62,068 nucleotides of DNA, taken from the IMG/VR virus record IMGVR_UViG_3300017989_000122, positions 1 to 62,068 of that record; one strand, given 5' to 3'. The position numbers and the translations under genes were made by a program. Below are positions 35,798 through 58,091 of the stretch, in pieces (position 1 is the first letter of the stretch; each line of letters opens with the position of its first letter). This stretch comes from a virus. Lineage: Duplodnaviria; Caudoviricetes. The notes beneath the pieces are model-generated. The model was given only the letters and a program-made list of their open reading frames with translations, did not search any database and had not been told where the DNA came from.

Positions 35798-36109
35798 ATG
35801 GGTGACCCTAACTGGTGGATGGTGATACTGGCCTTCGGTTCGTTTGCCGTGGCCTTGACAATGGCAATCAGTGGATTTGTATACCTTACCATGAAACTGA
35901 TGATTGACCCACTCAAGCGGGAAATCTCCGAGATGAAGGAACAGTTCACTCCACTGGTTAGGAAAGTCAAAAACGGTGACGAGCTCCAACGTATGATGGA
36001 CTTGACTGTGGCGCGTCATGCCACTGATTGCCATCGTGAGAAGGTGAAGGAGGAGCAGGCTCGTCGCAAACTGGCCGAACGGGAAGTCCCGGCAGGCGGA
36101 GGAGTTTGA
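35798..36109 (+). CDS. Membrane protein (holin-like candidate)
   Basis: Single N-terminal TM helix followed by a charged tail. Confidence 0.45.
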   Translation: MGDPNWWMVILAFGSFAVALTMAISGFVYLTMKLMIDPLKREISEMKEQFTPLVRKVKNGDELQRMMDLTVARHATDCHREKVKEEQARRKLAEREVPAGGGV

Positions 36110-51647: not shown

Positions 51648-52130
51648 TTACCTCCTCCTCATTCGCTTGCGTACTCCCTTTCTCACTCCACTTCGTCGTT
51701 GATTCTCCAACAACTCCTCGTTCAGGTCACGAGGGGTCGAGGGGCCTGCGAAGTATTGCTGGCCATGAAGCTGGACCAACATCTCCAGTGCCTTCTTCTT
51801 GTGGTCGAGGGCACGGACGACCGCGTTGATGGTATCGACCTCGTGGGTCGCCTCGATGACTTCCTCATTGGCGGCAAGGAATCGCTCTTCCAGTTTGATT
51901 GCGTTGGAGAGTGCAGATTCGGTCACCTTTTCCAGACCGAACTTCTCCGGCTTCAGTCGCATCTCCTTGTCGAGTTCGGCCATGACGATGTCACGACGTT
52001 CCTTGGCGCGGTCGACTTCCGCCTTGGCGTCTGCCAGTTTCTCGCACCACTCACCCATCAGGGCTGGCTGGTTCACCCACTCGACATCGAGTGCGCTCGC
52101 ATTGATGGCAATGCTGTCCTTCACGTTCAT
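51648..52130 (-). CDS. UvsY-like recombination mediator
   Basis: Helical, KVTESAL motif, ALDHKKKAL; next to SSB and RecA. Confidence 0.6.
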   Translation of the reverse strand: MNVKDSIAINASALDVEWVNQPALMGEWCEKLADAKAEVDRAKERRDIVMAELDKEMRLKPEKFGLEKVTESALSNAIKLEERFLAANEEVIEATHEVDTINAVVRALDHKKKALEMLVQLHGQQYFAGPSTPRDLNEELLENQRRSGVRKGVRKRMRRR

Positions 52131-52168
52131 TGTTCTTCCTCCTCTTCTGGATTATATATAGATACCGG

Positions 52169-53092
52169 TCAATCCGGCATTTCTGAATAGACCTCGGTGC
52201 ATAATCCTACGAGCCCATCGAAACCGCTGTCGTAAACATTTTCTTTGAATACTGACATGACAAAGGCGGCCTGTGGGTCGAGTTTGTCATTGTTAAGAAC
52301 GACCGTGCGGCAGTAGCCCATAATTGCCCGGCGTGTTTTCTCCGGGTCCTCCTTTTGAAGCCCGTTGAGTATGGTGGCAATTGTTTTCCATGGTGCCCGT
52401 TTGAAAAGGGCGCGGCAGAGTTCGATGACTTGGTTAGCCCTCTCCGCCTGCCGCGCCGCTGTCTTCAACATCCGCTTGGGAGGAAGGTCGATTATCTTTT
52501 CCAGTACCACCAGTGCCTGGCGAGCCGAGCCCATCGCATCGGTGGCGACTTGTCGTGCCACCTCCTCCGGCAAGTCCTTGCCCTCACTATGGGCCACCTC
52601 GCGCAGTAGCCGCTCCATCCGACGTCGGGGCAGGGGTGACCAAGAAAATTCAGTGCAGCGGGTGCGAATGGTAGGGAGGAGTTTATCCGGGTCAGTCGTG
52701 GCCAGGATGAAGTAACAATGGGATGGTGGGTCCTCCAGTGCCTTCAGTAAGGCATTCTGGGCGTCCTTGGTCAACTGGTGGCACTCATCCAACAACCATA
52801 CACGGACTTTGCCTTCCACCGGACTCAGCTGGGAGTTGTGCCGGATATCACGGATGGTATCGACACCACGGAAGTCCGCACTATCAATTTCCTTATAGTC
52901 CAGGTTGCCACAGCCCAACTCACGCCGGACGATTCTCGCGGCGGTGGTCTTGCCGGTGCCGCTCGGGCCGGTCATCAGGAAGGCGTGGGGGATATCTGGC
53001 TTGCTCAACGTAGCCTCCAGGGCAGCAAGCGTGTCGCGATTGCCCATCATCTCCTCGAGCGACTGTGGTCGATACTTGTTATATAGGCTCAT
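52169..53092 (-). CDS. Clamp loader (DnaX gamma/tau-like AAA+)
   Basis: KYRPQ, GPSGTGKTT, LDECH, QNALLKALEDP, TIRTRC, GSAR. Confidence 0.92.
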   Translation of the reverse strand: MSLYNKYRPQSLEEMMGNRDTLAALEATLSKPDIPHAFLMTGPSGTGKTTAARIVRRELGCGNLDYKEIDSADFRGVDTIRDIRHNSQLSPVEGKVRVWLLDECHQLTKDAQNALLKALEDPPSHCYFILATTDPDKLLPTIRTRCTEFSWSPLPRRRMERLLREVAHSEGKDLPEEVARQVATDAMGSARQALVVLEKIIDLPPKRMLKTAARQAERANQVIELCRALFKRAPWKTIATILNGLQKEDPEKTRRAIMGYCRTVVLNNDKLDPQAAFVMSVFKENVYDSGFDGLVGLCTEVYSEMPD

Positions 53093-53346
53093 TCCTTTTC
53101 TTCTCCCTTGATTCGGGCGATGACTTTAGGTATAAAACAACTATCACACTCGTTTGCTCCGTTAGTTCGACATTCTGCACAACCCTTTTCGATTTCCCTG
53201 ACGCACCGCTCGATGGCGGCGGCTTCTCCGGCTCGGTAGGCTTTTTCCGCAATTCTTACGGCTTCACCTTCCTTATGATAGTCTGGTTGTTTTTCCGCCC
53301 AATCAAAGATGTCTTTGAATGTATTAGGCTTCAACTGGTCACTCAT
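53089..53346 (-). CDS. Hypothetical protein
   Basis: GGAGG RBS; CxxC...CxxC. Confidence 0.55.
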   Translation of the reverse strand: MSDQLKPNTFKDIFDWAEKQPDYHKEGEAVRIAEKAYRAGEAAAIERCVREIEKGCAECRTNGANECDSCFIPKVIARIKGEEKE

Positions 53347-53653
53347 CGCTCACCTCCTCTCCAACGCGGCATGGGGCGGACGTCCCACCGCCCATGCCAT
53401 TGTTGGCCTTCTCGTCTTCGGCTTCCACGGCGTCTGCAAACGGCATCCATATCTCATCCGGTATATCGAATCCGGGGACCGTACAGGCCGGGCTTTCGAG
53501 GTACTCCTTGAGGGCCACGGAAGCGGCCAACAAAGAAATGCTAGGGACCGAACAAGGAGGTGGACTGTACGCCGCCTCCCTGCATCCAAAGCACTGCCAC
53601 GACCCCGGCGCGTCTGCCGTTGTCAACTCGGTTCCGCATGTCGCGCATTTCAT
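53339..53653 (-). CDS. Hypothetical Zn-ribbon protein starting inside attC-like site 2
   Basis: CATCG...CFGC; ATGA overlap with the upstream gene. Confidence 0.55.
   Translation of the reverse strand: MKCATCGTELTTADAPGSWQCFGCREAAYSPPPCSVPSISLLAASVALKEYLESPACTVPGFDIPDEIWMPFADAVEAEDEKANNGMGGGTSAPCRVGEEVSDE
53359..53408 (+). mobile_element. attC-like recombination hairpin 1 (short)
   Basis: CTCCAAC-GC-GGCATG[G]GGCGG...CCGCCCATGCC-ATT-GTTGGCC. Confidence 0.5.
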
Positions 53654-53677
53654 CGACAGTCACCTCCGGCGTTCGGC
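53547..53677 (+). mobile_element. attC-like recombination hairpin 2
   Basis: ACCGAAC-AA-GGAGGT[G]GACTGT[A]CG...CGACAGTCACCTCC-GGC-GTTCGGC. Confidence 0.7.
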
Positions 53678-53892
53678 GATTTTAGTCTGAACGTCTTGTG
53701 ACAATACCGACACGATGCACGGTCGTAGTCCTTCCATCCTAAGGCATGGGCATGACCGGCGTACCCAAGCCCCTTCCTGCCACATGCAGGGCAAACCTCA
53801 CGCGCCGCCCGCAGCTTCGCCGGACAAAGCCTCGGAGGCGACGTGCTAAGGTCCGCGCCCGACCCATCCGTCTTGGTCTGTCCATCACTCAT
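53650..53892 (-). CDS. Hypothetical Zn-ribbon protein spanning attC-like sites 3 to 2
   Basis: GGAGG RBS and ATG lie in the hairpin-3 loop; CPACG...CRYC. Confidence 0.6.
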   Translation of the reverse strand: MSDGQTKTDGSGADLSTSPPRLCPAKLRAAREVCPACGRKGLGYAGHAHALGWKDYDRASCRYCHKTFRLKSPNAGGDCR

Positions 53893-53948
53893 CGCCCGGT
53901 CCTCCGTTGTTGGTTGTTTCAGCACGCGCCTCAAGGCTGGCGTTCGCA
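53819..53948 (+). mobile_element. attC-like recombination hairpin 3
   Basis: GCCGGAC-AA-AGCCTC[G]GAGGCG[A]CGTGCT...AGCACGCGCCTCAAGGCT-GGC-GTTCGCA. Confidence 0.65.
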
Positions 53949-53969
53949 ATGCTTTCTGGCTTCAACTGG

Positions 53970-54470
53970 TCAGGCATCGGTGTGCTCCTTTGGTTGCTTA
54001 TCCAGCGGGAATCGTGGGTCTATTCCCAAAGGGTTAAGTGGCCCAAATCTACATTCTTCACAACTGATATCCCCAGAAAATTCATGCTCGCAGTCATAGT
54101 CATAGCCATCGGTGGGGTTGCCGCAAGTATATCCCAGACAACGGGCAGGAGCGTCATGACCCCTCGGCGTGTCAGATTGCTCACACTCATCGGGTGGCTG
54201 GAAGTCGGGCGCGATGCGGTAGATACCTTCTGGACGTTCTGTTCTCTCGCAAAGCGAAAAATGTTTTACTGTCTTGCAATAAGATACCGTTTGACTGTGG
54301 CGTAGAACATCCACCTCTTCATCTGACAGAAACATTCTTGCTCTTTCATTCTCCTTCAACCTCTCGCAGATTTCCCTGCGCTCCGGCGTCCACCATGATG
54401 CAGGTTTCATTCCGTCTCTCCTTTTAATAAGCATGGCATCCGTTCTCGGCGTATCGCTATCGCTCATCAT
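53970..54470 (-). CDS. Hypothetical mosaic protein
   Basis: ATGA-coupled to polA; SDTPR motif occurs twice; C-terminal Cys cluster. Confidence 0.55.
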   Translation of the reverse strand: MMSDSDTPRTDAMLIKRRDGMKPASWWTPERREICERLKENERARMFLSDEEVDVLRHSQTVSYCKTVKHFSLCERTERPEGIYRIAPDFQPPDECEQSDTPRGHDAPARCLGYTCGNPTDGYDYDCEHEFSGDISCEECRFGPLNPLGIDPRFPLDKQPKEHTDA

Positions 54471-55828
54471 CCTCCCTCCATACTGAATTTCTCTTTCGCG
54501 TGCCAAGATTCTCCCGGCGGTGACAGCTCGACTTCGATTTCCAGTGGTGTAATAATCCACGACCATGCCTTACGGATGTCCTCGGTCATCACCTGTTCCA
54601 ATATTCCAACAATTTCTGGTATGTGCCTCGGTCGCACGTCCATCACGATTGAGTCATGGATTTGCCCGACGATGCAACGCGGTAGGCCCCTCGACCTCAG
54701 TCCAGCATGGATGTGAATCAGCGACCAGAGCAAGCAATGGAACGCCGCCCCCTGCACCGGGTAGTTGATACAGTCATTCCTGCTCATCAGATTGGAACAA
54801 CGAAACCCGGTTTTGCCTTCGATGAACCCCCGCTTCAAATATTGGGCGTACCAGTCCCGCCTCCATTGGTCATATACCCTGAACCGCCGCCAGAAGTTGG
54901 CTTCAACTTTTGCAATATGCTTTGTGAAGTCTATCAGGTTCCTAATTCCTTTTTTCATCAAGTGCTTCTTCAATGGGACTCCACTTTTGCTTTTCAAGTC
55001 CATCAACTCAATCGCGTTCCATAGTTCCGGTGCACAATCTTCGTAGTACGAACCATAGAACTGTGGGAATACAAACTTATTCTTACCACAGTATCGGATG
55101 TCGGAAGTCATTTCCTCCAATGGAAGGATGTAGCAGTTCGCCGCCTCATCACGATGTAAGTCCTTCGTCGGGTCCTTAATGTAATCCAGCATCAACGGGT
55201 CATGGTGATAGCAAGTCGCTACACGCACTTCGGCTCCATCGTAGTCGCTTTCGAGGAATTGCCGCCCTTTACGTGGGATGAAACATCGCCGGATGGTGCG
55301 CCCCTGTTCCTTGTCACGGATGGGCATGTTCTGGAAACTCGGATTGCTGGCCGATGACCGATACGTGCGGACAAAGTTCAGGGGAAAGTGTGGATGGATG
55401 AATCCGTCGACCATCTCCCGTTCGATTTGTACCAGGTACTGGATTGACTTCTGATGCTTCCGCATCTTGAGTAGGTCGGCGAGGAAGGGAACCTCCTTGG
55501 CCAGCACTTGCAAGCTGGCGGCGTCGACTCTCGGATTGCCTTTCTTCGTATGGTCGACCGGCTTCACACCCAGTTCCTTGAATAGAATCACAGTCAACTG
55601 TGGACCGGAGTCCAGATTCATGTCATCGCCGTATCGCTTCTTCCACTTATGTACACCCTTACTGGCCATCACTTCCCTGCGTGCCCTGTGCATCTTCCGG
55701 CGCGTCCTACGTAGTTGCGTTTGGAGGTATTCTTCGTCAATACGGATACCGAAGTTACTTACATCGGATAATGTCCGTACCCCTTGCAACATGAAATGAT
55801 TGAAGTCGGATAGTCGACTATGCTTCAT
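54467..55828 (-). CDS. Family A DNA polymerase, polymerase domain (split gene)
   Basis: Motif A DYDGAEVR, motif B R...K..F..FYG, NYPVQG, motif C IHDS. Confidence 0.93.
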   Translation of the reverse strand: MKHSRLSDFNHFMLQGVRTLSDVSNFGIRIDEEYLQTQLRRTRRKMHRARREVMASKGVHKWKKRYGDDMNLDSGPQLTVILFKELGVKPVDHTKKGNPRVDAASLQVLAKEVPFLADLLKMRKHQKSIQYLVQIEREMVDGFIHPHFPLNFVRTYRSSASNPSFQNMPIRDKEQGRTIRRCFIPRKGRQFLESDYDGAEVRVATCYHHDPLMLDYIKDPTKDLHRDEAANCYILPLEEMTSDIRYCGKNKFVFPQFYGSYYEDCAPELWNAIELMDLKSKSGVPLKKHLMKKGIRNLIDFTKHIAKVEANFWRRFRVYDQWRRDWYAQYLKRGFIEGKTGFRCSNLMSRNDCINYPVQGAAFHCLLWSLIHIHAGLRSRGLPRCIVGQIHDSIVMDVRPRHIPEIVGILEQVMTEDIRKAWSWIITPLEIEVELSPPGESWHAKEKFSMEGG

Positions 55829-57069
55829 CGTTCCAACTCCCTCATTTGTGCATAAGCCAGGCGATGTTCCAACAACGCATCCATACCACAGTAAAGCAGT
55901 AGGTCGTCCATCGGTGCCTTGTCGATGGTATTAAAGGCGTTCGCCCCATCCTCCTTGCTTTCCAGAAACTTTGCCACACTTTTGTTGTAGTCGAAGATTC
56001 CCCATCGTCTAGCCGCCTGGAACTTGACTGATGTAATATTCGGTCGATTATCCAGGATGTGTGCCGCGAGAACAGTATCCCATATCCAGTTCCTTGGCTC
56101 GACGCCCAGGATGACTCGTGACCACTCATTCTCAAACGCGATATTGGCTGCAATCTTTTCGATGTCAGGATTTGCCATCAGTCGGGCAACTGTTTTTTGA
56201 ACGCGGCCGTCATTCATTGGGAAGGCCCACGCACCATCGACCGATGGACTGACGGCACAGGTTACAATGCGGTGGCCCTCCGCGTGGGGTTTGATGCCGG
56301 TCGTTTCGTAGTCAATGGTAATTCGGTCGCCGGCTTTGATACTACGAAGGCACTCGATGATTTCCCGTGGTTCCATCAGTCGCTTGATACAATCCTGTGC
56401 CACTATCATCTTCGGCAACTGTGATTTCTGTTTTGCCAGCCGCGCCACCAGCTTGATATCATCCTGGACTTGTAGGGTTGCCGGGTCGGTGGTCTTGCCA
56501 CGCCGTAGGAGGAACGCCGGATGGTAGGTGGCAACGAACCAACATCCCCGCTCATAGTCTGGAACCGCATAGCCGCGCCAGCGACTGATGCCTCCCAGTT
56601 CCTTACGCCAGCGGCCATCCATCCAGGCGGTCAACGCGACATTGCCGACCAGCAGTACGACCCGGGGTTTTAGTTCTTGGACTTCGCGCAACCAAAACTC
56701 CTTACAGGTTTTGATTTCCCGTCCGGTCGGCGTCCGATTGTTAGGCGGACGGCAGCGGATGGCATTGGTGCGCCAGCAGTCCATATCCATATTGAGGCCG
56801 GCTCGCCTCATCATCTGCCGAAGGAGGGCCCCAGAACCGCCCACCAAGGGCACCCCCTGGGCATCCTCGGCAGAACCCGGGGCTTCGGCCATGATGAGCA
56901 GTCGATGCCGTCCTTTGCCGTAGTGAGGCATCTTCGGCGAGTGGCATCCGGTCAAGAGTGTGCATGACTCGCCGCAGGTCAGGCGAGCCGCCCGTGGCGT
57001 CCTGGCCTTCCTCGTCCCGGTGCGCCGCTTGGCCTTTTTCGGGAGTTTGAAGAATCCGGTTCCCATCAC
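55825..57069 (-). CDS. Family-4 uracil-DNA glycosylase-like domain + 3'-5' exonuclease (SPO1-type PolA N-terminal half)
   Basis: AEAPG, NAIRCRPPNNRTP, TYHPA; ExoI DYETTG, WDT, ExoIII YCGMD. Confidence 0.88.
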   Translation of the reverse strand: MMGTGFFKLPKKAKRRTGTRKARTPRAARLTCGESCTLLTGCHSPKMPHYGKGRHRLLIMAEAPGSAEDAQGVPLVGGSGALLRQMMRRAGLNMDMDCWRTNAIRCRPPNNRTPTGREIKTCKEFWLREVQELKPRVVLLVGNVALTAWMDGRWRKELGGISRWRGYAVPDYERGCWFVATYHPAFLLRRGKTTDPATLQVQDDIKLVARLAKQKSQLPKMIVAQDCIKRLMEPREIIECLRSIKAGDRITIDYETTGIKPHAEGHRIVTCAVSPSVDGAWAFPMNDGRVQKTVARLMANPDIEKIAANIAFENEWSRVILGVEPRNWIWDTVLAAHILDNRPNITSVKFQAARRWGIFDYNKSVAKFLESKEDGANAFNTIDKAPMDDLLLYCGMDALLEHRLAYAQMRELER

Positions 57070-58091
57070 TCATCCTCATCCTTGAACAAACTGATTGCGT
57101 AGGTAGCATCGTCATGTTGGACGAGCATCCGGTCGGTACCGACGAGAACTTCGTTGCTCTTGTCCACAACCATCAGGAGGAGTTCGGGTTGTACTTGGAA
57201 TTGGAGGGTGTCCTTGAACCGCGTCCGTAACGTTTCCTCTACCCATCCTTTTTCGCTCTGTGCCCTGATGACAAGTTTGCCACCAGCGAACTTTACCAGT
57301 ACGCGTTCATCCTGTTTGAACTCGGCAATAGAAAATATCTTGGCCCGCTCGACTGATTGTAACAAGGTGGACGGGAATCTGACTTGCTTCATGTCCTTCG
57401 TACGTTTCAAGAACGGGGCAAGGTCAGGATACTTGTCATTCGTTTTCGTTTGTCGTGTCCCGATTCCTACCTTCTCTTCAGTGCGAAGGTGGAACCAACC
57501 ATCCTTGCCTACCATGTACTGTGTGACCGGATACTCAATCAGTTCTGATATGACATGTGCCGGGATGAGGAGTTCCTTACTGACCTTACCGCATGGCACG
57601 CGTACCATCTGGAACCCATCACAGGCCTCCACAAATGTTTCCTTGACGTGGACGGCCGTCAGTTCAGGCCGTGCCAAACTATTCGTCGCATACTGATAAC
57701 TGGTGGCCAGGCCTTCCACCAATCCCTTCGGCACTTTCTTCCAGGCACCTTTCAAGTTGATAAACTTGTCCACGGGCAACGTGACTTCTGCATCCATCCG
57801 CACACCTGCTTTGGTTCGTTTACCGCTGATGAGGAGTTCACCCTTCCCCATTTCCAGTTCGACCTCATCATCTTCCATTCTGTCAAGGAGTGTCAGCAGT
57901 TCTTCGGCTGGCACCGCGCCTTCCAGGCCCTTCGTTGGCAGTGGTGCCTGGACATAGAGCAGGTCGTTATAGGAGTGTACAAATCCCTTGCGGAATATAA
58001 ACGAACTGGATTGTTCGACGATTTCTTTCGATGCAAGTCCAGGTTGTACGATGGTCAGCATGCGCCACAATTGCTCCCGGTTGACTTTCAT
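57066..58091 (-). CDS. DNA sliding clamp (beta-clamp-like)
   Basis: 341 aa; RPELTAVH..ACDGFQM, YPDL, SVERAKIF; next to polymerase. Confidence 0.75.
   Translation of the reverse strand: MKVNREQLWRMLTIVQPGLASKEIVEQSSSFIFRKGFVHSYNDLLYVQAPLPTKGLEGAVPAEELLTLLDRMEDDEVELEMGKGELLISGKRTKAGVRMDAEVTLPVDKFINLKGAWKKVPKGLVEGLATSYQYATNSLARPELTAVHVKETFVEACDGFQMVRVPCGKVSKELLIPAHVISELIEYPVTQYMVGKDGWFHLRTEEKVGIGTRQTKTNDKYPDLAPFLKRTKDMKQVRFPSTLLQSVERAKIFSIAEFKQDERVLVKFAGGKLVIRAQSEKGWVEETLRTRFKDTLQFQVQPELLLMVVDKSNEVLVGTDRMLVQHDDATYAISLFKDEDE

What the first reader, a model, noticed from the sequence alone, without database searches (positions are those of the whole stretch)
53327..53977. Integrase-less array of integron attC-like hairpins that build phage genes on the opposite strand
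Seen: three hairpins (53359-53408, 53547-53677, 53819-53948) have unrelated stem sequences but the same geometry. Each has a left core ending in AAC (GAC in site 3), 8 nt to an unpaired base, and a right arm one spacer base longer ending in GTT. Sites 2 and 3 have a second unpaired A 7 nt after the first. Known: integron attC sites have their extrahelical bases at these positions (16 and 23). Seen: the left core of site 3 (GCCGGAC) matches the right core of site 2 (GTTCGGC) better than its own. An orphan GGCCAAC at 53525 exactly complements the right core of site 1 (GTTGGCC). This cross-complementarity is what serial cassette insertion produces. Unlike ordinary cassettes, the ORFs run antisense: RBS, start and stop codons sit inside the hairpin loops, so each protein joins loop-encoded and cassette-encoded parts. 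I saw no tyrosine recombinase in the genome. Inference: the phage borrows a host integron integrase to acquire and shuffle ~150-bp coding modules, a possibly undescribed diversification system.
Basis: partly seen in the sequence, partly recalled or inferred. Interest (0 to 1): 0.9.

Follow-up and report, generated by a model that had tools for sequence, protein, structure and literature searches.

The report
Integron-type attC mini-cassettes in a phage
Between the polymerase and clamp-loader genes of this 62-kb phage lie two or three very small gene cassettes bounded by hairpins built like integron attC recombination sites, with the genes unusually coded on the opposite strand and starting inside the hairpins.

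Summary
Three hairpins (53359-53408, 53547-53677, 53819-53948) share the geometry of integron attC sites: 7-nt AAC/GTT inverse cores (GAC in site 3), a short unpaired spacer, and bulged bases at positions 15/16 and 23 on one arm only. Eight established attC sites measured with the same script all have a bulge at 16. A covariance model trained only on 39 established attC sites gives one hit in the whole window: site 2, with exact ends (15.2 bits, E 0.31). A model that also includes four sites from a related metagenome contig scores site 2 at 28.8 bits and ranks site 3 second. Mosaic breakpoints in relatives fall on the AAC and GTT cores. No tyrosine, integron, serine or HUH recombinase was found. 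Integrase-less attC clusters in virulent phages are already published (Qi 2023, PMC9892861), so this kind of element is known. Three features look unusual: cassettes of 269-271 bp, genes on the attC bottom strand with ribosome site and start codon inside the hairpin, and junctions always at an in-frame AAC codon. Action by a host IntI was not tested.

The parts
53359..53408 (+). Site 1: a 50-nt attC-like hairpin (top strand = plus). Cores CTCCAAC/GTTGGCC, single left-arm bulge at 15. It encodes the C-terminal tail of p104 on the minus strand.
   Evidence: Fold z -3.7/-3.1. Geometry. Model R1 gave only 7.2 bits, E 1.7, on the minus strand. No hit with R2 or R3 at E<=10. It is the same size and single-bulge type as the TJE1 attC at 244-293.
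53547..53677 (+). Site 2: a 131-nt attC-type site. Cores ACCGAAC/GTTCGGC, bulges G16 and A23 on the left arm. The loop carries the ribosome site, the ATG and the zinc-ribbon N-terminus of p104, plus the stop of p80, on the minus strand.
   Evidence: Geometry. R1 7.7 bits. R2 28.8 bits, E 1.7e-4, best hit in the window. R3 (established attC only) 15.2 bits, E 0.31, the only hit in the window. Homologous copies in L022-L026 have unrelated 5' flanks up to the AAC.
53819..53948 (+). Site 3: a 130-nt degenerate attC-like site. Left core GCCGGAC (AAC changed to GAC), right core GTTCGCA, bulges at 15 and 23. The loop carries the ribosome site, the ATG and the leader of p80, plus the stop of p30.
   Evidence: Geometry. 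R2 12.1 bits, E 1.6, second best in the window. No R3 hit. Other Logan contigs match only 53837-53944 with unlike flanks. Their left cores read ..CAAC and ..GAAC, and similarity stops at the end of GTT.
53403..53671 (+). Cassette 2 (269 bp, G|TT to G|TT on the plus strand): the p104 body plus site 2.
   Evidence: Boundaries follow from the cores. The conserved p104 C-module, VPSISLL..EDEKAN, fills the body and ends at the AAC codon in 7 of 10 homologues.
53672..53942 (+). Cassette 3 (271 bp): the p80 body plus site 3.
   Evidence: Boundaries follow from the cores. The conserved p80 zinc module starts just after the site-3 foot. It ends at an Asn followed by unrelated tails in 4 of 6 homologues.
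53339..53653 (-). p104 (104 aa): a chimera of an attC-encoded zinc-ribbon N-module (aa 1-35), a body module (aa 36-84) and a tail read from site 1.
   Evidence: The N-module is shared with P0012-P0014 and L022-L026. The body is shared with P0002-P0011, which have other N-termini.
53650..53892 (-). p80 (80 aa from the ATG): a leader coded in the site-3 loop and arm, a conserved CxxC..CxxC zinc module, and the tail AGGDCR read from the site-2 arm. Its stop overlaps the p104 start (ATGA).
   Evidence: Distant homologues in L029-L031 are ordinary genes with no attC hit beside them.
53885..53977 (-). p30: probably a remnant. MPDQLKPESIAN is coded outside the array and is joined at an in-frame AAC to a tail read from site 3.
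   Evidence: Its start region repeats that of p85 (repeat D1).
53089..53346 (-). p85: a small Cys-rich gene downstream (in the sense direction) of site 1. No family found.
53327..53358 (.). Direct repeat D1, copy A (the p85 ribosome site and start). Copy B is at 53958-53989, 81% identical. Together they bracket the array.
53958..53989 (.). Direct repeat D1, copy B (the p30 ribosome site and start).
52169..53092 (-). Clamp loader (AAA+, DNA_pol3_delta2): the left flank of the variable interval.
54467..55828 (-). Family A DNA polymerase domain: the right flank. p198 (53970-54566, no family) lies between it and the array.

Best explanation
The stretch 53359-53948 is a short cluster of integron-type attC sites without an integrase (a CALIN), carried by a phage that is probably virulent (no integrase gene found). 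It holds two mini-cassettes of 269 and 271 bp, and p85 lies next to them.

Shown:
- The hairpins have attC architecture.
- Site 2 is recognised by attC covariance models.
- The same cassette and hairpin types occur in other phage-like contigs with unrelated flanks, and the breakpoints fall at the AAC/GTT cores.

Inferred:
- The cassettes are moved by an IntI-type integrase supplied by the host. It would act on the folded bottom strand, which here is the gene-sense (minus) strand, and cut at AA|C.

Arrangement (shown):
- Each cassette, read in the gene direction, starts with its own attC. That attC carries the ribosome site, the start codon and the first 24-35 codons. A body of 48-49 codons follows and ends in an in-frame AAC (Asn) codon.
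- Translation then runs a few codons into the next cassette's attC arm and stops there, often overlapping the next start (ATGA).
- Reshuffling cassettes would therefore keep every gene translatable and change only its short C-terminal tail.
- Site 3 (core GAC, R-box pairing 4 of 7) looks decayed and may no longer recombine.
For: Geometry. The window sites have left-arm-only bulges at 15/16 and 23, spacers 2/3, and AAC/GTT cores. Eight of 8 established attC sites measured with the same script have a bulge at 16 (aadA2, dfrA14, dfrA17, three from phage TJE1). Four of those 8 also have a bulge at 23. In the established arrays, 10 of 13 hits in the Vibrio array and 5 of 7 in the Shewanella arrays have bulges on the left arm only. 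Published bottom-strand extrahelical bases are G16/T23 for attCaadA7 (PMC5027507, passages).

Chance. Two clean sites in the window against 0.05 expected per 62 kb in 40 shuffles. No clean site in about 57 kb of non-array phage DNA or in 21 related loci.

Covariance models.
- R3, trained on 39 established attC sites only, gives one hit at E<=10 in the whole window on both strands: site 2, with exact ends (15.2 bits).
- R2 gives site 2 28.8 bits. Held-out TJE1 attC sites score 31.6, 31.1 and 21.5. Two TJE1 sites, named attC1 and attC2, were tested in PMC9892861; I could not map them to these coordinates.
- R1 and R3 find 3-4 sites in L026 at 14-25 bits, all antisense to the genes.
- None of the 23 R1 hits (E<=1) and none of the 39 R2 hits (E<=0.05) fell outside known arrays or L026.

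Mobility.
- A 296-bp block bounded by ..AAC and ..GAAC is 98.4-99.0% identical in L022, L023 and L025, with unrelated flanks.
- Logan contigs match only the inside of site 3 or site 2, with unlike flanks.
- Protein homology stops at the AAC codon in 7 of 10 (p104 body) and 4 of 6 (p80) homologues.

Reading phase. AAC is in codon phase 0 at 10 of 10 unambiguous read-through junctions. Two more junctions are ambiguous. One cassette ends with its own stop 8 nt before the AAC.

No recombinase in the record.

Precedent. CALINs occur in virulent phages and their attC sites are recombined by IntI1 (PMC9892861).
Against: - With models trained on established attC sites only, support in the window is weak. 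Site 2 gets E 1.3 (R1, 8 kb searched) and E 0.31 (R3, whole window). Site 1 gets E 1.7 on the opposite strand with R1 and nothing with R2 or R3. Site 3 gets nothing with R1 or R3.
- The strong R2 score depends on adding four L026 sites to the training set, so it is a transitive argument.
- Site 3 lacks the conserved AAC.
- There is no covariation. The L022-type copies of site 2 have a weaker stem (two runs of about 4 bp), with no compensating changes.
- Whole-hairpin fold energies of sites 2 and 3 are not unusual.
- The attC-to-body junction of p104 lies at the R'' foot, where IntI does not cut.
- No relative of the cassette proteins was found in 185,579 species genomes. No exchange with bacterial integrons is therefore shown.
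- The host, and any intI it may carry, are unknown.
- My models and my geometry script are home-made stand-ins for IntegronFinder and HattCI.
Confidence: 0.62

Rival explanations
1. These are relic attC sites that now serve expression. The hairpins descend from attC sites but are no longer recombined in this phage. They would persist because, in the mRNA (which has the bottom-strand sequence), they enclose or sequester the ribosome sites and enforce translational coupling between the overlapping small genes.
For: - In site 2 the Shine-Dalgarno GGAGGTG pairs with CACCTCC 90 nt downstream.
- Stops and starts overlap as ATGA.
- Site 3 has lost its AAC, and its R boxes pair at 4 of 7 positions.
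- No skipped-cassette joints were seen in four runs' contigs (contigs only, so weak).
Against: - Near-identical cassettes (98.4-99.0%) sit in unrelated flanks, with junctions at the cores. That points to recent site-specific movement in this family.
- A role in expression does not exclude recombination. The two readings are compatible.
Confidence: 0.18
2. A non-integron mechanism. Boundary hairpins would promote exchange through a phage or host function other than IntI, for example relaxed homologous recombination or a structure-specific nuclease. This would resemble the PeSL cassettes of T4-type phages, and the likeness to attC would be convergent.
For: - The phage has no integrase.
- Breakpoints occur at both feet: the AAC side, and the R''/GTT side in p104 and at the L023/L025 second block.
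- The polA-clamp loader slot is variable in relatives that have no attC sites.
- PeSL precedent: PMC2839356 and PMC4122927 (search listing and start of abstracts only).
Against: - Bulge positions 16/23, spacer lengths, cores and size range match established attC sites in detail.
- Models trained only on bacterial and TJE1 attC sites find L026 sites at E 0.002-0.07 and pick site 2 as the single window hit. Convergence on all of these features is unlikely.
Confidence: 0.13
3. Chance. These would be ordinary hairpins in G+C-rich coding DNA, plus ordinary phage mosaicism at gene boundaries.
For: - Whole-hairpin z-scores of sites 2 and 3 are unremarkable.
- 38 of the 291 AAC..GTT pairs that fold with the foot paired (2010 pairs examined) have 14 or more stem pairs somewhere in the window.
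Against: - Strict geometry is expected 0.05 times per 62 kb and was seen twice within 320 bp.
- The only R3 hit in 124 kb of searched strands lands on site 2 with exact ends.
- L026 has 4 clean sites in 2 kb.
- AAC is in frame at 10 of 10 unambiguous junctions.
Confidence: 0.05

Closest known systems
CALINs (clusters of attC sites lacking an integron-integrase) in phage genomes, e.g. Tetrasphaera phage TJE1 (Qi et al. 2023, PMC9892861)
   Same: Several attC-type hairpins lie close together in a phage genome that has no integrase. Size (50-131 nt) and bulge geometry match the TJE1 sites. The R2 score of site 2 (28.8 bits) is close to those of TJE1 attC sites (31.6, 31.1, 21.5).
   Different: In TJE1 the ORFs lie on the attC top strand and end in the attC, which is the canonical layout. 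Here the genes lie on the bottom strand, start inside the attC, and read across the junction. The cassettes are only 269-271 bp. The supplementary tables listing all 17 phage CALINs could not be read, so I cannot say whether any of them shares this layout.
Integron cassette arrays and attC sites (class 1 aadA2, dfrA14 and dfrA17; Vibrio and Shewanella chromosomal arrays)
   Same: R''/R' inverse cores with AAC/GTT, an unpaired central spacer, extrahelical bases at 16 and 23, and a variable terminal loop. Neighbouring sites share a family while the bodies differ. Cassette ends lie at G|TT.
   Different: There is no intI, attI or Pc in the record. Gene orientation is reversed. The cores are GAAC/GTTC rather than TAAC/GTTA. 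The attC makes up about half of each cassette and is itself coding. No homologous cassette was found in bacterial genomes.
PeSL mobile regulatory cassettes of T4-type phages (PMC2839356, PMC4122927; search listing and start of abstracts only)
   Same: Short conserved stem-loop elements at the borders of small accessory genes in a hyperplastic region. They carry expression signals and are associated with modular shuffling between phages.
   Different: By their titles and abstracts, PeSLs are promoter-terminator motifs thought to act through homologous recombination. The elements here carry ribosome sites and start codons and have attC geometry with an AAC crossover core. I did not compare sequences.

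Membership tests
integron attC site | Inverse cores R'' RYYYAAC and R' GTTRRRY that pair, with a conserved AAC/GTT triplet | tested here: met
   Sites 1 and 2 have AAC/GTT, with 5 of 7 and 6 of 7 complementarity. The purine/pyrimidine consensus is only partly met (my reading). Site 3 does not meet it in the window (GAC, 4 of 7), but its relatives in Logan contigs read ..CAAC and ..GAAC.
integron attC site | Extrahelical bases on one arm only, at about positions 16 and 20-24 (bottom-strand G16/T23 in attCaadA7) | tested here: met
   Site 2 has bulges at 16 and 23, site 3 at 15 and 23 (plus one right-arm bulge at 29), and site 1 at 15. Eight of 8 established sites have a bulge at 16 by the same script. 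Positions from PMC5027507 (passages). Base identity matches only in part: on the bottom strand site 3 gives G and T, site 2 gives C and T.
integron attC site | Unpaired central spacer between the R and L boxes, a variable terminal structure, and a typical total length of roughly 55-140 nt (the range is recalled) | tested here: met
   Spacers are 2/3 nt in all three sites, against 3/3 to 5/5 in established sites. Lengths are 50, 131 and 130 nt, against 50-133 nt in the established set.
integron attC site | Recognition by an attC covariance model | tested here: inconclusive
   The IntegronFinder model was not available, so I used home-made models. Site 2 scores 7.7 bits, E 1.3 (R1); 15.2 bits, E 0.31, the only hit in the window (R3); and 28.8 bits, E 1.7e-4 (R2, whose training set includes L026 sites). 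Site 3 is seen only by R2 (12.1 bits, E 1.6). Site 1 is seen only by R1 (7.2 bits, opposite strand)..
integron attC site | Recombined by an IntI integrase as a folded bottom strand, with the cut at AA|C | not testable with these tools
   Only indirect evidence: breakpoints at the cores in relatives.
CALIN | At least two attC sites within 4 kb and no integron-integrase nearby (PMC4889954, passages) | tested here: inconclusive
   There is no integrase in the whole record. By geometry there are three sites within 590 bp. By model there is one clear site, plus one marginal site with R2 only. L026 meets the criterion with the established-only model: hits at E 0.0019, 0.0081 and 0.072 within 1.3 kb.
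complete integron | An intI gene with an adjacent attI and Pc | tested here: not met
   No TIGR02249 match at E<=1 and no PF00589 match at E<=0.001 in the 62,068-bp record. I did not search for attI or Pc.
canonical integron cassette | A promoterless ORF on the attC top strand, contained within one cassette | tested here: not met
   Genes are on the bottom strand in the window and in L022, L023, L025 and L026. They start inside the attC and read across the AA|C junction.
PeSL cassette (T4-type phages) | A conserved early promoter plus a stem-loop terminator motif flanking mobile ORFs | not tested
   I did no promoter analysis and no comparison with PeSL sequences. I saw only the listing and the start of the abstracts.

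The most novel reading that the evidence does not exclude
A pool of mini-cassettes (215-460 bp) specific to phages, with three linked properties. First, the attC hairpin does double duty as the recombination site and as the 5' part of the gene (ribosome site, start codon, and a leader or zinc-ribbon N-terminus). Second, the genes are coded on the recombinogenic bottom strand. Third, all cassettes join at an in-frame AAC codon. An IntI borrowed from the host could then reorder, add or fuse small accessory genes in frame, much like exon shuffling. One ORF in L026 already reads through a 57-nt attC and joins two cassette bodies. The same attC type attached to different bodies would also give a tractable view of how new cassettes are made.
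Probability: 0.35. Interest if true: 0.85.

Novelty: new variant of a known kind. Interest (0 to 1): 0.66.

Why it matters
Integrase-less attC clusters in phages were reported only recently and were judged rare (17 CALINs among 10,705 phage genomes; PMC9892861).

This case adds direct comparative evidence that such cassettes really move between phage genomes. A 296-bp cassette is 98.4-99.0% identical in three contigs with unrelated flanks.

It also shows a layout that standard integron thinking does not predict: reversed coding strand, coding attC sites, and in-frame AAC junctions.

If host integron integrases act on infecting phage DNA, integron recombination would be one mechanism behind the hypervariable small-gene regions of phages. 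It would also be a two-way route between phage and bacterial cassette pools.

The association of one attC type with different bodies bears on the open question of how cassettes originate.

Tried and rejected
- **Rfam**. Only two irrelevant weak matches (E 4.6-4.8). I do not know whether Rfam holds an attC family, so this says little.
- **Phage collection by blastn**. Only a 41-nt match in two records of one phage.
- **The search for related loci with the full p104 alignment**. I then used the single protein and a reduced alignment.
- **Viral contigs.** No relative of p104. No close relative of p80. Three distant p80 homologues have no attC beside them. An 18-nt site-3 arm motif gave 0 matches.
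- **Species genomes.** Nothing for either cassette protein family.
- **Laid contigs of four runs**. No joints, so no excised or skipped-cassette forms were seen. These are contigs, not reads, so this proves nothing either way. Parts of the stretch without cover are not interpreted.
- **First geometry script, with penalised spacers**. It missed sites 1 and 2, so I replaced it with a free-spacer version. The 'clean' filter is stricter than real Vibrio sites can pass: 0 of 13 pass, because of 2-3 stem mismatches. It is a specificity test, not a sensitivity test.
- **Model R1 with default filters**. It missed the TJE1 sites, so its sensitivity is limited.
- **PMC11511950** (passages). It reports attC sites as minor determinants of polar effects. 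I did not use it as support.
- **Rejected: MITE-like or RPE-like in-frame palindromic elements** (an idea from recall). The elements have no shared sequence family across sites, and they do have attC geometry.
- **Rejected: IS200/IS605-type hairpin ends.** No Y1 transposase was found.
- **Print search for a reversed-strand, attC-coded gene start.** Only (4 papers; 45 papers, 12 listed), with listings read. This is not an exhaustive search.
Full report
**What is there.** The window is a complete 62,068-bp virus record with direct terminal repeats. All genes from the family A polymerase (54467-55828) to the clamp loader (52169-53092) lie on the minus strand. Five small ORFs sit between them:
- p198 (53970-54566)
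- p30 (53885-53977)
- p80 (53650-53892 from its ATG)
- p104 (53339-53653)
- p85 (53089-53346)

None has a Pfam or PHROG family above noise. In 14 related viral loci that hold both flanking genes, the polA-clamp loader gap ranges from about 110 to about 2,280 bp. It is about 1,375 bp here. None of the five small ORFs is found by tblastn in any of the 21 related loci. The slot is therefore hypervariable in this phage group.

**Checking the hairpins.** Site 1 is a strong 50-nt hairpin: -16.3 kcal/mol, z -3.7/-3.1, with 1 of 200 shuffles as good on each strand. The 130-nt sites 2 and 3 are unremarkable as whole folds (z -0.6 to -1.4), but each closes with a long foot stem.

I wrote a script that aligns the two arms inward from an N4AAC...GTTN4 foot. 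I calibrated it on real integrons fetched from records named in Qi et al. 2023:
- In a Vibrio phage integron it finds 13 sites. Ten have bulges on the left (top-strand 5') arm only, at 14/16, 20 and 24.
- In a Shewanella prophage it finds 7 sites, 5 of them of that type.
- None has the opposite polarity.

Measured directly, aadA2, dfrA14, dfrA17 and three TJE1 attC sites all have a left-arm bulge at 16, and three of the six also have one at 23. This agrees with the published bottom-strand extrahelical bases G16/T23 of attCaadA7 (PMC5027507, passages).

The window sites give:
- site 2: bulges at 16 and 23
- site 3: bulges at 15 and 23, plus one mismatch and one right-arm bulge
- site 1: bulge at 15

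All have spacers of 2/3 nt, and all have the plus strand as top strand. Under a strict filter the window has 2 such sites, both in the finding. Forty dinucleotide shuffles gave 0.00 and 0.05 per 62 kb. About 57 kb of non-array phage DNA and the 21 related loci gave none. The orphan 7-mer could be chance.

**Covariance models.** The IntegronFinder model was not available, so I built my own.

R1 was trained on 20 Vibrio and Shewanella sites with an 18-pair structure.
- It finds held-out class 1 attC sites: dfrA14 at 29.2 bits, aadA2 at 18.7, dfrA17 at 18.3.
- It misses the TJE1 sites with default filters.
- With filters off, its two best hits in 52000-56000 are site 2 (7.7 bits, E 1.3, plus strand) and site 1 (7.2 bits, E 1.7, minus strand). 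Both have exact ends, but neither is significant.
- In the metagenome contig L026 it finds four sites at 13.9-22.3 bits, all antisense to the genes.
- All 23 R1 hits at E<=1 in 81 kb lie in known arrays or in L026.

R2 was built from those 23 sites.
- It scores site 2 at 28.8 bits (E 1.7e-4), the best hit in the window.
- Site 3 is second at 12.1 bits (E 1.6).
- It recovers the three held-out TJE1 attC sites at 31.6, 31.1 and 21.5 bits.

R3 was built from 39 established sites only, with nothing from L026.
- It gives exactly one hit at E<=10 in the whole window: site 2 (15.2 bits, E 0.31).
- It gives L026 hits at E 0.0019, 0.0081 and 0.072.
- It gives nothing in six related phage loci.

Model support is therefore good for L026, moderate for site 2, marginal for site 3 and poor for site 1.

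**Evidence that the units move.** p104 and p80 have real relatives.

p104 is a chimera.
- Residues 1-35 form a CxxC..CxxC zinc ribbon coded in the site-2 loop. They are shared with P0012-P0014 and with an 88-aa gene in L022-L026, which continue differently.
- Residues 36-84 are shared with P0002-P0011, which have a short unrelated N-terminus.
- The body homology ends at Lys-Ala-Asn, followed by unrelated tails, in 7 of 10 homologues. That Asn is the AAC of the site-1 junction.

The conserved p80 module ends at an Asn followed by unrelated tails in 4 of 6 homologues.

At the DNA level, a 296-bp block containing the 88-aa gene runs from ..CAAC to ..GCGAAC. It is 98.4-99.0% identical in L022, L023 and L025 and 89% identical in L026. 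The flanks are unrelated on both sides. One flank gene is a phage-type DUF4406 protein. Downstream of the block, L022, L023 and L026 each have another, different AAC...GTT hairpin.

Logan contigs from other runs match only 53837-53944 (inside site 3) or 53570-53676 (inside site 2).
- Their loose ends show true ..CAAC and ..GAAC left cores.
- Similarity stops at the last T of GTT.
- The flanks are unlike the window on both sides.

**Layout.** On the gene-sense strand each cassette begins with its attC and ends with ..AA|C.
- The AAC is in codon phase 0 at 10 of 10 unambiguous read-through junctions: 3 in the window, 5 in L026, and 1 each in L022 and L025.
- Two further junctions are ambiguous.
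- One cassette ends with its own stop 8 nt before the AAC.
- The upstream protein then acquires a short tail from the next attC arm. Before site-2-type attCs this tail is AGGDCR or VKGDWR, and translation stops at an ATGA overlap.
- In L026 one ORF reads straight through a 57-nt attC.

Cassette lengths are 269 and 271 bp in the window and 215-462 bp in L026 (my arithmetic). The gene strand is the attC bottom strand in the window and in L022, L023, L025 and L026. That is the reverse of the canonical layout seen in TJE1 and in the bacterial arrays.

**What is missing.**
- PF00589 gave no match at E<=0.001. TIGR02249, PF00239 and PF01797 gave none at E<=1.
- Neither cassette protein family has a relative in the species-genome collection.
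- No stem covariation was seen. The L022-type copies of site 2 have a weaker stem.
- The join between the site-2 attC and different bodies lies at the R'' foot, which IntI does not cut. That step remains unexplained.

**Comparison with what is known.** CALINs are defined as two or more attC sites without a nearby integrase (PMC4889954, passages). Qi et al. 2023 reported 17 CALINs in phages, virulent ones included, and showed that IntI1 recombines 5 of 6 tested phage attC sites (PMC9892861: abstract, section 3.4, passages). The kind is therefore known. I file this as a new variant because of the reversed strand, the coding attC sites, the very small cassettes and the in-frame junction rule. My two literature searches on this point found no description of these features, but they were not exhaustive, and the supplementary lists of Qi et al. 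were closed.

**Verdict.** The best explanation is a phage-borne CALIN of reverse-strand mini-cassettes (confidence 0.62). Host IntI action is inferred, not shown.

Noticed in passing
window 53327-53358 and 53958-53989: A 32-nt direct repeat (81% identical) covers the ribosome site, the ATG and the first codons of p85 (MSDQLKP) and p30 (MPDQLKP). It brackets the attC array. p30 looks like the 5' remnant of a p85-like gene into which the cassettes were inserted at a GCGAA|C site.
   Followed up: partly
window 57081-57188 (+): Third-best R2 hit (11.3 bits, E 2.4). The feet are CTTGAAC/GTTCGGG, and the site lies at the junction of the UDG-exonuclease gene and the next minus-strand gene. Its arm geometry is poor. 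It is either a relic site or chance.
   Followed up: partly
window 35806-35963: A 158-nt imperfect palindrome with feet CCCTAAC/GTTAGGA (-28.8 kcal/mol, 46 stem pairs) inside a minus-strand ORF. Its bulges are on both arms, and no attC model hits it.
   Followed up: no
window 53525-53540 versus 53393-53408: GGCCAACAAAGAAATG is 81% complementary to the right arm and core of site 1. It lies in the conserved LLA codons of the p104 body. This is unexplained and may be chance.
   Followed up: no
L026 1284-1760: One 158-aa ORF reads in frame through a complete 57-nt attC-type site (1547-1603). Two cassette bodies are therefore fused into one protein.
   Followed up: partly
L023 1351-1403 and L025 153-205: A second shared block (about 90% identical) starts at the GTT core (..TTGGTTCGGC). 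It sits downstream of the 88-aa cassette in L023 but about 500 bp upstream of it in L025. The cassette order therefore differs between the two contigs.
   Followed up: partly
L022 881-1147 (88-aa gene, also in L023-L026): Besides the N-terminal zinc ribbon shared with p104, the protein has two CxxCxGxG motifs. From recall, these resemble the DnaJ zinc-finger repeat.
   Followed up: no
window 54467-57069: The family A polymerase is split into two adjacent ORFs. One (55825-57069) carries a uracil-DNA-glycosylase-superfamily domain plus a 3'-5' exonuclease. The other (54467-55828) carries the polymerase domain.
   Followed up: no
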